Source: a virus (taxonomy: Duplodnaviria > Heunggongvirae > Uroviricota > Caudoviricetes). Taken from it: a DNA stretch of 45,010 nt. Position numbers: made by a program. This document shows, piece after piece, positions 29,301 through 35,300 of the stretch; the first letter of the stretch is position 1, and every line of letters begins with the position of its first letter. The stretch is taken from the IMG/VR virus record IMGVR_UViG_2917870735_000003; one strand, 5' to 3'.

Positions 29301-32300
29301 TACCCCATCACTCAGAGACATCGCATAATAACATTCATACCACTATATAACCTCCAAATAACAACAACAATTCATTGGTTGCATTAATATCAGCGTGTTC
29401 CGTTGTTCAGGAATAAAACTTTTTATTTAACAAACAAAGAGAGTTCAATGATGAGCAAAATTACAGGCGTGTTAGTTGATAGCCATATCTATGATATTAA
29501 AAATGATATGGAGAGTGGTTACTGTTTCCCTAACAGTTTGTTCCCAGGAGCAACCTTCAAGATGGTCATTGATAATGACCCTATTAATAATGACAAGGTA
29601 AAATGGACCTGTAGCACTAATGCAGACAATAATGTTCTGGCGGTTAGCCAGGATGGCACAGTAACTTTTCCGGGCGTAGATGAAAAGTGCGTTGGGAAGA
29701 TTTTTGTCATTTTCGCCACTGATAAATCAACAAACAAATCTGCCGGCATCTATGTTTTTATTGTGAAGCGTTTTTTCAAATACAGCATTGAACTTTATAA
29801 CTCAGTTAAAGATATTTTACCGTGGATTGAAAACATGAACGGGAATTTTCCTGAGGCACGTGACATCTATAGTTACGATTATGATAACTATAGTGGACCG
29901 CATATTATCAATCGAGAAGTTAACGCAGGGCTTTACCAGGAATGGGGCACGTTATCTAATAGTGGATGGGACGCAAGTTGTGAGCTTGAGGGTATTTGTA
30001 GCATTTACGCTTTTGATAAAGACAATAATACTTATTATTGCCTGCGTGATTATGGAGAAATAGAGTGTATTGATCGTTTTTGCGTCGCTCAGGCAGTTGC
30101 ATCCTACGGAGAATCCATCGACTGATTGTGTTTTTTTCAACTATCATTTGCATTATTACAGCGTAAAGATTCACTGAAATTATAAAATTTAACTTGCGCA
30201 AAACCACCCGTTCAGCGGGTGGTTCTCATTTTTATCCACTATGTATATGAAGCTTAAAAAAATAAACGGACTTAAGCGCTCCTTTTTATATTGCTACAAA
30301 CAATTAATTCTCGACACCTAATAACTAAAGCCCCGCCCCCATATACCGCCAATACCCGTTTCATAACAAAATGCTGGTGACATTTCTCACCGGAAACTTT
30401 ATTGCTACTGCTCAGAACGCAAATGCGGCAATACTCGGCTCCACTTATCATCCTGCCACGGCTGGAATCTTACATGTGCCGTTTCTCTGGCAAGGATTTC
30501 GCGCGCCTTATGTAGTATCTGGGGATATTCTTGCTCAATAGAAGTAAAGCGACCGGCTTCGCGATGCTCCGCAACCTGAAGAAGTGGAGTAACATTCTGG
30601 CAGGCGGTTAACATCACATCCCCTGCTCGCCATAACCAGGCGAGTGTGCAAAGTTCGTTATCAGTGAATTGTTTTGTGATTGGGGATTGTTGAACTTCTC
30701 GATCGAGAATATCCAGAACCCAGCGGCGGAATTCTTTGGCTACAGGAGTGCGGGCGAACATAGCGATCAAATGGGCACCACGGAGGGAGAAAATGCGTAT
30801 TGTTTTCTGGTAGTTCCCTGAGACACTCAAATTGAGGGTCTCAGTCATATCTGCCCTAAATTCATCGGAATTTCGATCGTAGATCTGAGTTACGGCATCA
30901 GATTTTTTATATCCGAGAGCTTGAGCAATCTCAACGGCAGTAAGCCAGATACTGTTGTTGTGTTTAACAGGATGGAATTTTGTTTGATGAAAGACTAGTT
31001 GTGTGCTCATGATGATTACCTATAAATCAAGTTAACCACCACCGCTGACGCCAATCAGTTTGGTGGTGAGACATGTAGGGTTGGCGTAACCGGGGTAATC
31101 AACCGGCCCGACCGAAGTCGGCCCTACACGCCCCACCATAATTCAGATGTGCGTATGCTTACGACAATAAAAAACACGCTCGCGGCGTGTAGTAGTCGCG
31201 ATTACCTTATCCGGGACGCCAATCCCGTGTGCCGATTTTGCGGCAACGCACAGAATATAGCGCCAGATATTAGTTATCGTCAACCTCACTGATTTCCTCC
31301 CCCCGCCGCATAAACAAATAAAACCCGCTTCATCGCGGCACTCTGGCGACACTCCTTGAAAATCAGATTCGTGCTCACCTTTCCTTCCCGTTCTTCCCTG
31401 GTAGCGAACCTGTAATACACCGTTCGCCAGACCTTACCATCAATGACCAAGATTCCTGCCCGCGCCATTTTAGCCGCAGCCTGATTTATGCTGGTTACTG
31501 TTGCGCCTGTTACCTCAGCAACGTCCTGCGCACAGAAGCTCTTATGCGTCCCCAGGTAATGAATAATTGCCTCTTTGCCCGTCATACACTCGCCCCTTTC
31601 AGCCCAAACTTCGCTTTGATTTCGGCGATCTTCGCCAGCGCCTGAACACGATTAAGCGGCCTGCCACCCATGACAGGAAGTTGTTTTACTGGTTCAGGTA
31701 TCGCCTCTCCACGGTTAATTCGCGCGGTCATACAGGCCAGTTCATCGGCAGCCTTGCGCCGTAATTCCGCATCAGTAAGCGCATTGGCCCGCATGTTCTG
31801 GTACAGGTTGGTAACCAGCCAGTAGTGCGCGTTTGATTTCCACGGATAAGACTCTGCATCTGGATACAGGCCACGCTTCCGGCAATACTCATAAACCATA
31901 TCAACCAGCTCGCTGACGTTTGGCAGCCCGGCGTTAACGGATGCTTCTTCCCGGCACCAGGCGACAAACTGCCCGGGTGATGGCAGGAATGGTCGATTCT
32001 GCCGACGGGCTACGCGCATTCCAGCGTTAACCTGTTCCATCGTGGTGATCCCATTTTCCCGGAAAGCCAGAACCCACTGGCGGCGGATTTCGTTCAGTTC
32101 GTTCTGGTCACGGTTAGCCAGGCTCGCCGGGAAAGTTGCCAGTAACTGGCTGAACACACCGTTGATGATCTGCGCTACCTGCTGTACCTGCGGCTTTTCG
32201 TCGTACTGTTCCGGCATGTTGTTGGCGATCCGGCGCATCTGCTCACGGTCAAAGTTAACCATCTGTGCGGCGATGTTTTTCATAAATCCACCCCATAAAT

Positions 32301-35300
32301 CCAGTCAGTGTTCGTCAGGTCGAGTTTTGATTTTCCGGCTGTCACGCCGGCCTGTTGCTTGTTACGGTTGATTTCGAGTTGGGTCCACTTTTCGCGGAGT
32401 TTGGCCGGACTTAGCACGTTACCGGACCAGAAGTTGTCCTGGCATGCCCAGCGGAACAGCACGCACATGTCGCGGTGGTTACGTCCGTCACGTTCACGCA
32501 TCAGGCGGATATCGTTAGCCCACCCTGCAAAATTCGGTTTTCTGGCTGATGGCGCGATGGTCTTCACCATGTCAAACATCCACTCTGCGGCGGTCAGGTC
32601 TTCTGCTGTCCCCCACTTGCTGCCGCTCTGAATCGCAGCATCCGGTTTCACCACAGGAAGGTCGTTTTCTGGCTGGTCAGAGGATTCGCCAGAATTCTCG
32701 GACGAAAAAGGTTTTATATTGTCTTTTGTTAGTTTGTCTTTTGTGTTTACCTGATTCGGGTAAACGTCTTTACCTGATTTGGGTAAACTTTACTTACCTG
32801 ATTCAGGTAAATTTACCTCTTTCAGGTAAACTTTATTTTTCTTACCTGATTCGGGTAATGTTGACCATTCACTGACCACATTATTAATGCCGATATTCCG
32901 CCCGCTCTGAATAAGAATCCCACGCTTTACCAGAACGCTTTTTGCAGCAGAACACTTGTGCGGCAATATCCCGGTCAATTCGGAAAGTTGCTCGTTGCTC
33001 ACCCAATCCAGTTTTTTATTAAAGCCATATGTTTTGCGCATGACAGCCAGGAAGACCAGAAGCTGGTGCTGTGTTAATCCGGCCAGCATCACAGCTTCCA
33101 GCAACTCATTTGCAATGCGCGTATAACCATCATCGAGATCTGCCACGCGCGGCTCCTTTTGTGCCACATCCGGCACTGGAAAATTGAATATCTCAGCAGT
33201 GTTTGCCATAATTCCTCCCGCAATGAGTGTGTTACGATTTGCACCTGAAAGTCGGTTCTGTTCGCGCAGACCGGCTTTCGCCATTTCTGAACCTGTCATA
33301 TTGCCCCCAGCATGGTGGTGACCATCGCCATCAGTGGACCAGCCAAATCCGGGTCCACACGAAACATCGACACAATGCCTTCACTCATCTCCTTCAGTTT
33401 CTGGTGGCGTGGTGCGTTGAGAATGACAGCCTGTTTTGCCTCACTGAGTTCCTTTTCCATTTCAGCCAGCCGAGCCATGAAGCTATCCTGCTCAACCAGG
33501 TGGCCGCGATATTCCAGCGGTAGTACCGCCAGAATTGCCGGGGTCAGTTCACGCACGTTATTTCGGTATTTTTCAGAATCGAATTTGTTATCGAGGAAGC
33601 GGAACAGCTTCTGGCGTGCACGGCTGACATCATCAGGAAAATCGATAGTGCCGCCGCCCTGCTCCCGATACTCATTCACAATGAGTGCGGCAACAACATC
33701 CTGATTATCTGCAGCCGACCAGGCGCGAACGGCATCACGGATTTTTTCGTGGCCTGGCGCCTGTTTTGTTTGAGAACGATTTATCAGCGCAGCCGGGGTA
33801 ATTCCGCTAGTCTGTTGGTATGTAATTGGTTGCATAATTGATTCCTTTAGTTTGAATTGACTGTTAATCAGTCTGTTAAGTTGATTGCTTATTGTTAAAG
33901 AGCGTGAAATGGAAATTTAAGCTGCGTTCTTTTCGGTGTGTGGAAACAACTTCGGAAGGTCCGGGCGAATCTGGTATGCCTTCACAACTCCACCAGTAGC
34001 CGTAACAATGCTGCCGACATGTTCAGGGGATACCTTTGCTTTGTTGTGAAGCCACTTATAGACGGCCTGCTGTGAAACTTCGCAGGCATCGCCCAGTTTC
34101 TTTTGTGAACCGACGATATTGATCGCGGTTTTGATTGCTGGGTTCATAACAACCTCCGTGGTTAACTTGAATCAAGATTAAACTATGGTTGTTTTTAGTC
34201 AACAACCATTTTCGTTTGATGAAATAAAACCTTGGTTGTACATTTGGTCTATGAAAACAACACTCTCAGAAAGACTTAAAGAAGCCAGATTAGCGCGAGG
34301 CCTTACACAAAAGGCGCTTGGGGATATGGTCGGGGTTAGCCAGGCTGCCATTCAGAAAATCGAAACAGGGAAAGCTAACCAAACAACTAAAATCGTGGAG
34401 ATCGCAAACGCTTTGGGTGTGCGCGCAGAATGGTTATCTTCTGGCGTTGGAAATATGTCAGACAGTACCGTGCAACCAATACAATCAACTGTCAGCCATT
34501 CAAAATACTTCAAGATTGACGTTCTTGATATAGAAGTCAGTGCCGGACCGGGTGTCATCAACCGTGAGTTTGTGGAAGTTCTACGCTCGGTTGAGTACTC
34601 GTTTGACGATGCTCGTCACATGTTCGATGGCAGGAAGGCGGAAAATATCCGCATCATTAACGTGCGCGGTGACAGCATGTCAGGGACGATCGAACCAGGT
34701 GACCTGCTGTTCGTTGATATCACTGTTAAATCTTTCGACGGTGATGGCATCTATGCGTTTCTGTACGACGACACTGCCCATGTAAAACGTCTTCAAATGA
34801 TGAAGGATAAGCTGCTGGTTATCTCTGATAACAAGAGCTACTCGCCGTGGGACCCGATCGAGAAAGACGAGATGAACCGGGTGTTCATATTCGGTAAGGT
34901 CATTGGAAGCATGCCGCAGACGTACAGGAAGCATGGTTAATTTATCTACGACTTAAGGGAGCGAAGGTTAAGGTTTATACCACTCGGATTAGATATTGCA
35001 CTAAATTCTCTATAAGAACGCCAAATCTGTTTGCATATTTCAGTAAATATTCTCGTTGTTAGCTGAGATTTGTTGCTACTGTCAGCAAAACGTCCCCCTA
35101 TCTCGTAGCGTTTTTTATTTCGAATCATTATGTTAAGATGTTTCTGATTATAATGAATGGAAACATAAAATGAGAAAAATCCTAATCGCTGCCATGATGG
35201 CATCTCTATTGGCTGGGTGTGCTTCTTCAGGCAACCAGCAACTCAAAAATGAAACTGAAATTAGTGTCCAGTCTAAACTTCAGGAAGGTAAAACAACCAA

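What the first reader, a model, noticed from the sequence alone, without database searches (positions are those of the whole stretch)
32280..33209. Replication initiator O is split by one in-frame TAA inside the ori iterons
The O-like N-terminal ORF (from 33209) ends at TAA 32790-32792, inside the five-iteron array. The same frame stays open for 45 more codons (hand-translated) and continues into the C-terminal ORF that ends overlapping the P start. Read through, the product would be ~309 aa, close to lambda O. Either a nonsense mutation has inactivated replication (cryptic prophage) or this is an unusual two-ORF arrangement. The iteron region encodes LPESGK-type linker repeats.
Basis: seen in the sequence. 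Interest (0 to 1): 0.6.

Follow-up and report, generated by a model that had tools for sequence, protein, structure and literature searches.

The report
Nonsense-mutated prophage replication initiator gene
A lambda-like prophage in a non-coli Escherichia strain carries a recent single-base change that puts a stop codon in the middle of its replication-initiator gene O, an ordinary early step of prophage decay rather than a new gene arrangement.

Summary
Gene O (minus strand, start 33209) stops at TAA 32790-32792. The same frame stays open to the TGA that overlaps the P start, and read-through would give 309 aa.

The stop is one A-to-T change (AAA Lys to TAA) in the 4-nt spacer between iterons 3 and 4. 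All 105 other gap-free copies of this O type that I collected have A there. So do 119 of 120 viral contigs, every isolated phage checked (4C10, 1W, Perceval) and about 2,365 complete E. coli genomes.

The allele is real. The identical sequence occurs in at least five independent assemblies of one near-identical prophage (99.98-100% identity). That prophage sits beside fliE in a cryptic-clade Escherichia host.

The mutation is recent. The haplotype has only one other private change, D273E, downstream of the stop. Structural, lysis and regulatory genes look intact.

The N-terminal fragment keeps the whole origin-binding domain but loses the lambda-identical C-terminal half, which in lambda recruits P-DnaB. 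No start codon follows the stop for 138 nt, and the window has no tRNA gene.

Best reading: a loss-of-function ochre mutation that leaves the prophage unable to replicate on its own. This is a known kind of event and of low interest.

The parts
32790..33209 (-). 5' part of gene O. Encodes a 139-aa N-terminal fragment ending at the premature TAA. Pipelines call a 169-aa ORF from the ATG at 33299.
   Evidence: Translation and ORF list. The Pfam Phage_rep_O domain is matched over its full length, 1-95 of 95 positions, entirely inside this fragment (E = 4e-35). The start aligns with lambda O. GGGAGG lies 5 nt upstream.
32790..32792 (-). Premature ochre codon TAA (ancestral AAA, Lys140 in 309-aa numbering). 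The mutated base is 32792.
   Evidence: AAA in 4C10, 1W and Perceval. A in 119 of 120 IMG/VR contigs. A in 105 of 105 other full-length copies. No complete E. coli genome matches the 76-nt stretch without a mismatch.
32746..32858 (.). Origin iteron array: five 18-bp palindromic repeats at about 32842-32858, 32813-32829, 32794-32811, 32769-32786 and 32746-32763.
   Evidence: Five-copy direct-repeat family and internal palindromes. Same position and architecture as the annotated lambda iterons. Variation here shows no third-position bias, [5,8,3], which fits constraint on the DNA.
32700..32745 (.). A+T-rich region next to the iterons, the presumed unwinding element of the origin.
   Evidence: Sequence. 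It aligns with the lambda A+T-rich segment ACACAAAAGACA.... Lambda origin anatomy is described in PMC3349717 and PMC5043065.
32280..32789 (-). 3' part of gene O, now untranslated: 169 in-frame codons plus a TGA that overlaps the P start.
   Evidence: Translation. From SSENSGESS onward it is about 98% identical to the lambda O C-terminal half. No start codon in any frame for 138 nt after the stop. The first start is GTG 32654, with no SD.
32391..32391 (-). The only other private substitution in this O haplotype (GAC to GAA, D273E), downstream of the stop.
   Evidence: Column-by-column comparison with 105 other copies.
31582..32283 (-). Gene P (helicase loader), intact.
   Evidence: Pfam Phage_lambda_P, E = 9e-62. 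228 of 233 residues identical to lambda P. It has its own GGGGTGGA upstream of the ATG.
33296..33835 (-). YdaT-family gene in the cII position, directly upstream of O.
   Evidence: Pfam YdaT_toxin, E = 7e-30. Annotated as CII in related phages.
33917..34940 (.). Immunity switch: cro-like YdaS gene (33917-34147, minus strand) and cI-type repressor with an S24 peptidase domain (34185-34940, plus strand).
   Evidence: ORFs. Pfam families on the identical genes in L005 and L006.

Best explanation
A single, evolutionarily recent A-to-T transversion turned Lys codon 140 of the lambda-type replication initiator gene O into an ochre stop. The prophage is otherwise intact and sits beside fliE in a cryptic-clade Escherichia strain.

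Shown here:
- The change is private to one near-identical prophage lineage and is reproduced in independent assemblies.
- It lies in an inter-iteron spacer, so the iteron cores and the A+T-rich region are unchanged.
- The truncated product keeps the complete Phage_rep_O origin-binding domain.
- The truncated product lacks the C-terminal half, which is about 98% identical to that of lambda O.

Inferred from established lambda biology: the O-some forms on the iterons and the C-terminal part of O recruits the P-DnaB complex. On that basis the fragment can still bind the origin but cannot bring in P-DnaB. After induction the prophage could therefore derepress and probably excise, but not start theta replication by itself. 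Premature termination may also lower P expression through polarity or lost translational coupling.

The lesion is best seen as the first step of prophage inactivation. The host plausibly tolerates or favours it because replication-defective prophages kill less on induction.
For: - In-frame TAA with the frame open on both sides.
- AAA in isolated relatives, in 119 of 120 viral contigs and in 105 of 105 other full-length copies representing 77 distinct haplotypes.
- No copy of this haplotype among 5,426 complete E. coli genomes.
- Identical O sequence with the TAA in GCA_004212295.1, GCA_004745215.1, SRR8062295 and IMG genome 2913128013; the exact truncated protein in GCA_023882195.1 and ERZ27297340.
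- The longer copies are 99.98-100% identical to the window.
- Only one other private substitution in the gene.
- The Phage_rep_O domain lies wholly within the N-terminal fragment.
- The C-terminal half is about 98% identical to lambda O and P is 98% identical to lambda P.
- No start codon for 138 nt after the stop, and no SD before GTG 32654.
- No tRNA gene in the window.
- Third-position bias of variation in both domains across the family shows that a continuous O is under purifying selection.
- Other independent O lesions occur sporadically in the family: L145 (TGA in iteron 1) and L085 (23-nt iteron deletion).
- Structural and other genes are of normal length.
- In lambda, mutations inactivating O or P abolish replicative killing by an induced trapped prophage (PMC3640518).
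- The order of assembly is ori-O, then O-P-DnaB (PMC5043065).
Against:
- The AlphaFold models of both fragments were low confidence (mean pLDDT 39 and 53), so domain boundaries are not confirmed structurally.
- A co-resident prophage with the same O type could complement the defect in trans; E. coli genomes carry up to five copies of this O family. I could not inspect the rest of the host genome.
- The lesion is so recent that no decay signal proves loss of function.
Confidence: 0.85

Rival explanations
1. The stop is a sequencing or assembly error and the real gene is intact.
For: It is a single-base difference inside a repetitive, A/T-rich iteron array, where assemblers and polishers can err. 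It is rare (1 of 120 viral contigs) and absent from JGI metagenome contigs.
Against: The identical base is present in assemblies from several projects and pipelines: NCBI GCA_004212295.1, GCA_004745215.1 and GCA_023882195.1, the Logan assembly of SRR8062295 (the same contig seen in 4 samples), ENA ERZ27297340 and IMG 2913128013. It is a substitution, not a homopolymer-length change.
Confidence: 0.02
2. O works here as two separately translated polypeptides: an origin-binding N-terminal protein and a P-recruiting C-terminal protein that associate non-covalently.
For: The stop falls in the iteron-encoded linker, which varies without codon-position bias. Both predicted domains are therefore left physically whole. 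In the low-confidence model of the post-stop fragment, the first 60 residues are unstructured and helices begin after the GTG ORF start.
Against: No start codon exists in any frame for 138 nt after the stop, and the first GTG (32654) has no Shine-Dalgarno sequence. None of 105 other copies is split at this position. The arrangement is private to one near-clonal prophage. No interaction between isolated O domains is known.
Confidence: 0.03
3. The gene is broken but the prophage still propagates. O would be supplied in trans by a co-resident prophage of the same iteron specificity, or the UAA would be read through by a host ochre suppressor or by leakiness. The element would behave as a helper-dependent phage.
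For: This O family is very common, and E. coli genomes carry up to five copies. Defective O157 Sakai prophages are induced, packaged and transferred through prophage-prophage complementation (PMC2669165). All other genes of this prophage look intact. Lysine-inserting ochre suppressors would restore the wild-type residue (my recollection).
Against: No tRNA gene is present in the window. UAA read-through in Escherichia is normally very low, and O is needed stoichiometrically (established knowledge). All TAA copies are 99.98-100% identical; the only copy whose flank I saw lies beside fliE, which gives no sign of spread to a second host lineage. The presence of a helper in this host is unknown.
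Confidence: 0.1
4. The truncated N-terminal O fragment has been retained for a new role. It would be an origin-binding decoy that blocks replication of superinfecting phages with the same iterons or dampens lethal replication after accidental derepression.
For: The fragment keeps the full DNA-binding domain. Extra copies of the lambda origin region are known to inhibit lambda-type replication (PMC3349717; title of PMC4488673). Inactivating O protects cells from replicative killing (PMC3640518).
Against: O is transcribed from the repressed rightward early promoter, so the fragment should not be made in a lysogen. There is no evidence of selection: one lineage and very recent. Simple loss of function explains the same data.
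Confidence: 0.03

Closest known systems
Nonsense (amber) mutants of bacteriophage lambda gene O, the classical replication-defective mutants
   Same: Premature stop in the same gene. The origin lies inside the gene and P lies immediately downstream. The expected phenotype is no initiation at the phage origin unless the mutation is suppressed or complemented. The C-terminal half and P are about 98% identical to those of lambda.
   Different: This is a natural allele fixed in a wild prophage lineage, not a laboratory mutant. It is an ochre codon. The N-terminal domain and iterons are of a different specificity type: five TTACC-type iterons against four lambda iterons, and about 70% overall protein identity.
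Replicative-killing-resistant (RK-) survivors of induced trapped lambda prophages, which carry insertions or deletions inactivating O or P (Hayes laboratory, PMC3640518)
   Same: Loss of O function in an integrated lambdoid element. It offers a rationale for why hosts with such mutations survive induction better.
   Different: Those lesions were selected in the laboratory in a non-excisable prophage fragment. Here the prophage keeps its integrase, and no selection was demonstrated.
Defective lambdoid prophages of E. coli O157 Sakai (Asadulghani et al. 2009, PMC2669165)
   Same: Prophages with point or fragmenting lesions in individual genes, including a replication gene broken into pieces, that may still be mobilised through other prophages.
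   Different: The Sakai prophages carry multiple defects. The fragmented replication gene described there is P4 alpha-like, not O. The present prophage has a single detected lesion.
Intact O genes of Bievrevirus-type temperate coliphages (Lambda_4C10, 4A7, 1W, 3W, Perceval, PhiR series)
   Same: 97-98.4% nucleotide identity across O. Same iterons, same YdaS/YdaT-O-P gene order.
   Different: They encode an uninterrupted O, with AAA at the position of the stop.

Membership tests
Lambda O-type origin-binding replication initiator (Pfam PF04492 Phage_rep_O) | N-terminal Phage_rep_O DNA-binding domain | tested here: met
   E = 4.1e-35, profile positions 1-95 of 95, residues 51-145 of the 169-aa ORF.
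Lambda O-type origin-binding replication initiator (Pfam PF04492 Phage_rep_O) | Origin (palindromic iterons plus an A+T-rich segment) embedded in the middle of its own coding sequence | tested here: met
   Five iterons at 32746-32858 followed by an A+T-rich stretch. Same layout as the annotated lambda origin.
Lambda O-type origin-binding replication initiator (Pfam PF04492 Phage_rep_O) | Single polypeptide joining the N-terminal domain to the C-terminal, P-interacting domain | tested here: not met
   TAA at 32790-32792 separates them. The gene is therefore a disrupted member of the family (a pseudogene), not a working one.
Lambda O-type origin-binding replication initiator (Pfam PF04492 Phage_rep_O) | Adjacent, overlapping lambda P-type helicase-loader gene | tested here: met
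   P at 31582-32283, with an ATGA overlap. Pfam Phage_lambda_P, E = 9e-62. 98% identical to lambda P.
Gene inactivated by a nonsense mutation (pseudogene) | In-frame stop at a position that is a sense codon in homologues, with homology continuing downstream in the same frame | tested here: met
   AAA in 105 of 105 other copies. The downstream frame is about 98% identical to lambda O.
Gene inactivated by a nonsense mutation (pseudogene) | The variant is real, not an assembly artefact | tested here: met
   Same allele in at least five independent assemblies.
Gene inactivated by a nonsense mutation (pseudogene) | Loss of protein function and of prophage replication | not testable with these tools
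   Needs induction, complementation or reversion experiments.
Naturally split (two-gene) initiator | The split is conserved among relatives and the downstream part has its own translation start signals | tested here: not met
   The split is private to one lineage. No start codon for 138 nt, and no SD at GTG 32654.
Stop codon decoded by an element-encoded suppressor tRNA or programmed read-through | Suppressor tRNA gene in the element, or a conserved stop with a read-through context in relatives | tested here: not met
   ARAGORN finds no tRNA in the 45-kb window. The stop is not conserved. Host-encoded suppressors could not be examined.

The most novel reading that the evidence does not exclude
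The TAA allele is kept because it is useful. Either the element persists as a helper-dependent lambdoid prophage that relies on O from other prophages, or the N-terminal O fragment acts as an origin-blocking decoy that protects the host from same-iteron phages and from replicative killing.
Probability: 0.05. Interest if true: 0.5.

Novelty: new member of a known kind. Interest (0 to 1): 0.12.

Why it matters
The practical value is for annotation and for predicting prophage activity.

- This prophage looks complete to prophage-finding tools, yet it probably cannot replicate on its own.
- It is a clean natural example of the very first step of prophage inactivation: one lesion and almost no later decay. 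It could serve as a test case for how replication-defective prophages are tolerated, complemented or purged.
- It illustrates the cost of placing an origin inside a gene. The iteron-encoded linker is constrained at the DNA level and carries TTA and AAA codons that are one substitution from a stop codon, so it may be prone to nonsense and slippage lesions. Two further independent lesions in the same array were seen in relatives.

It does not reveal a new mechanism.

Tried and rejected
- Sequencing error: rejected, because the allele recurs in independent assemblies.
- Phage-encoded suppressor tRNA: none in the window.
- Internal restart: no ATG, GTG or TTG in any frame for 138 nt after the stop.
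- Conserved split gene: none of 105 other copies is split at this position.
- Phage D2 (OM475427.1), annotated with two O CDSs: it looked like a precedent, but it is a frameshifted junction between a window-type 5' end and lambda-type sequence. It is a different lesion, possibly a recombinant or assembly chimera.
- Exact-pattern scans of GTDB species representatives and JGI metagenome contigs: nothing found.
- PDB sequence search with the read-through protein: no hit.
- AlphaFold2 single-sequence models of the two fragments: too low in confidence to define domain boundaries (mean pLDDT 39 and 53).
- Literature searches: no open-access statement of the O domain map was found, so that point rests on recalled classical papers.
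- Promoter and terminator scan of 31500-34300: nothing above shuffled expectation.
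Full report
**Observation.** On the minus strand, an ORF starting at ATG 33209 encodes MANTAEIFNF... and runs 139 codons to TAA at 32790-32792. The same frame then continues for 169 sense codons to a TGA at 32280-32282, which overlaps the ATG of the next gene as ATGA. Read-through would give 309 aa. Five copies of an 18-bp palindrome (TTACCTGATTCGGGTAA type) lie at 32746-32858, followed by an A+T-rich stretch. The stop lies between iterons 3 and 4. The altered base (32792) is in the 4-nt spacer, so no iteron core is changed. Iterons 1, 3 and 4 are read as LPESGK, LPESGK and LPKSGK. 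The first in-frame start after the stop is GTG 32654, 45 codons downstream.

**What the gene is.** The N-terminal ORF matches Pfam Phage_rep_O over the full profile (E = 4e-35). The downstream gene matches Phage_lambda_P (E = 9e-62) and the upstream gene is YdaT-like. Aligned with lambda O, the read-through protein is 70% identical overall. The two starts coincide. From SSENSGESS to the end the sequences differ at only a few residues. P is 228/233 identical to lambda P. The gene is thus a natural mosaic: a non-lambda N-terminal domain with its own iterons, joined just after the origin to a lambda-type C-terminal half that travels with lambda-type P. BLAST shows the same break. The full gene is shared at 97-98.4% with Bievrevirus-type phages. 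Only bases 464-930 are shared (93-95%) with 933W and other Stx phages. Pipelines annotate a 339-aa O from ATG 33299. The 30 extra codons show variable sites [2,6,4] by codon position, with no third-position bias, against [9,10,23] and [17,13,61] in the two domains. GGGAGG precedes 33209. I therefore take 33209 as the real start.

**What the stop is.** In phages Lambda_4C10, 1W and Perceval the codon is AAA. A 38-mer spanning iterons 3-4 with N at the variable base hit 120 IMG/VR contigs: 119 have A and one has T. I collected 110 gap-free full-length copies, 78 distinct haplotypes in all (77 besides the window's own). The window haplotype has only two private changes. One is A-to-T, giving Lys-to-stop at 32792. 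The other is GAC-to-GAA (D273E) at 32391. No complete E. coli genome (5,426 searched) carries this haplotype at 99% identity or more. The best full-coverage matches to the 76 nt around the stop all have one mismatch. The stop is therefore a single derived transversion.

**Is it real?** The exact 169-aa truncated protein is encoded on seven contigs. These include NCBI GCA_004212295.1 and GCA_023882195.1, the Logan assembly of SRR8062295 (the same contig in four samples) and ENA ERZ27297340. The identical O DNA is also in GCA_004745215.1, where no O protein is on record, possibly because the annotation treats the gene as a pseudogene. It is in IMG genome 2913128013 too. These are different projects and assemblers, so a one-off error is excluded. 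The longer copies are 99.98-100% identical to the window, and the window is 100% identical to PDHW01000003.1 of GCA_004745215.1. This is one near-clonal prophage lineage, not a widespread allele.

**Host and context.**
- The window ends exactly at the stop of a 434-aa tyrosine integrase.
- In PDHW01000003.1 the next gene is fliE.
- The flanking fli DNA is about 91% identical to that of the five other genomes recovered with the same integrase, one of which has a CP accession that I recall as E. coli P12b.
- It is 95.4% identical to the E. whittamii and Escherichia sp. E1V33 representatives and 88.8% to E. albertii. The host is therefore a cryptic-clade Escherichia.
- The rest of the prophage looks intact. 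Minus-strand ORFs run contiguously from 612 to 22746. Their sizes match the lambda-type genes Nu1, A, W, B, C/Nu3, D, E, FI, FII, Z, U, V, G, T, H, M, L, K, I, J and stf of the isolated phage PhiR63_1, which is 96% identical in DNA.
- Q, lysis genes, gam, recT, the YqaJ-family (exo-position) gene, cI and the cro-like gene are all present.
- 'Cryptic prophage' therefore overstates the decay.

**Consequences, shown and inferred.**
- Shown: the truncated product retains the whole origin-binding domain and lacks the C-terminal half.
- Shown: no ATG, GTG or TTG exists in any frame for 138 nt after the stop, and GTG 32654 is preceded by AGCCAGAAAACGACCTTCCT, with no Shine-Dalgarno sequence.
- Shown: no tRNA gene is present in the window.
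- Shown: across the family both domains evolve with strong third-position bias, so a continuous O is under purifying selection. The iteron linker varies without that bias ([5,8,3]), as expected if the DNA rather than the peptide is constrained.
- Inferred from lambda biology: O dimers on the iterons form the O-some, then O-P-DnaB assembles (PMC5043065). The C-terminal part of O contacts P (classical hybrid-phage and fragment studies, recalled). The fragment should therefore bind the origin but fail to recruit P-DnaB, so the induced prophage cannot start replication on its own.
- Possible further effect: polarity or lost translational coupling may reduce P, although P has its own GGGGTGGA.
- Possible benefit to the host: in lambda, lesions inactivating O or P abolish replicative killing by an induced trapped prophage (PMC3640518). 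This gives a plausible host-level advantage.

**Rivals.**
- A functional two-polypeptide O is unsupported. It is not conserved and has no start signals.
- Trans-complementation by another prophage of the same O type remains possible. E. coli genomes hold up to five copies of this family, and defective O157 prophages are mobilised this way (PMC2669165). I could not inspect the rest of the host genome. This would change the fate of the element but not the nature of the lesion.
- A decoy role for the N-terminal fragment is conceivable but unlikely, because O lies in the repressed rightward early operon.

**Family context.** Other sporadic lesions occur in the same array. A low-coverage metagenome contig has TTA-to-TGA in iteron 1 (L145). 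An IMG/VR contig has lost 23 nt by fusion of iterons 4 and 5, shifting the frame (L085). Breakage of O within its own origin therefore recurs at a low rate. In my sample, which was selected for an intact iteron 3-4 junction, the rate is a few per cent.

**Verdict.** It is a real, recent, lineage-specific ochre mutation that most likely inactivates the replication initiator of an otherwise intact lambdoid prophage. This is a familiar kind of event: a new example of prophage gene decay, comparable to the classical nonsense mutants of lambda O. It is of low general interest. It is useful mainly for annotation and as a natural single-lesion prophage for induction experiments.

Noticed in passing
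window 31059-31245 (minus strand), upstream of 30405-31010: Rfam finds a C4 antisense RNA (31059-31143, 74 bits) and an isrK Hfq-binding sRNA (31169-31245, 61 bits) just upstream of a Bro-N/P22 antirepressor-type gene. This looks like an sRNA-controlled antirepressor module between P/ren and the nin region.
   Followed up: no
L003 (phage D2, OM475427.1) 1411-2432: The deposited phage D2 has O annotated as two CDSs. The 5' end is of the window type up to ...SELTGIL. It then joins lambda-type O sequence out of frame. This is either a recombinant with a frameshifted junction or an assembly chimera, and is a different lesion from the TAA.
   Followed up: partly
L085 about 4090-4101 and L145 about 2345: Two other independent lesions in the same iteron array in relatives. 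L085 has a 23-nt deletion fusing iterons 4 and 5, which shifts the frame. L145 has TTA-to-TGA in iteron 1, in a metagenome contig of about 3x coverage.
   Followed up: partly
window 33210-33299: The 30-codon upstream extension that pipelines add to O (339-aa models) shows no third-position bias in variation among 78 haplotypes ([2,6,4]). It is absent from lambda O. The annotated start of this O family is probably 90 nt too far upstream.
   Followed up: yes
L146 1-7360 (host flank of the same prophage in PDHW01000003.1): The host is not E. coli sensu stricto. The fli flank is about 91% identical to E. coli and 95.4% to the E. whittamii and Escherichia sp. E1V33 representatives. The prophage sits directly beside fliE.
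   Followed up: partly
window 38229-39293 (+), 41686-42387 (-), 29403-30125 (+): Accessory genes inside the prophage. There is a DndB/DGQHR-domain protein in the early-left operon. There are also two Invasin_D4-domain proteins. The identical 233-aa copy also occurs in a remnant element beside the lambda attachment region (ybhC-bioA) of the sister assembly GCA_004211985.1.
   Followed up: no
L149 (phage PhiR63_1) 18533-21944: In the reference phage PhiR63_1 the tail-tip gene J is annotated as two CDSs (1983 + 1458 nt). The window has one continuous 1137-aa J ORF at 4028-7441.
   Followed up: no
window 32280-32745 versus 32746-33209: O is a natural mosaic. Similarity to 933W, other Stx phages and lambda begins just after the origin, at query base 451-464 depending on the phage. 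The N-terminal domain plus iterons belong to a different specificity type. This matches the classical modular exchange point of lambdoid O genes.
   Followed up: partly
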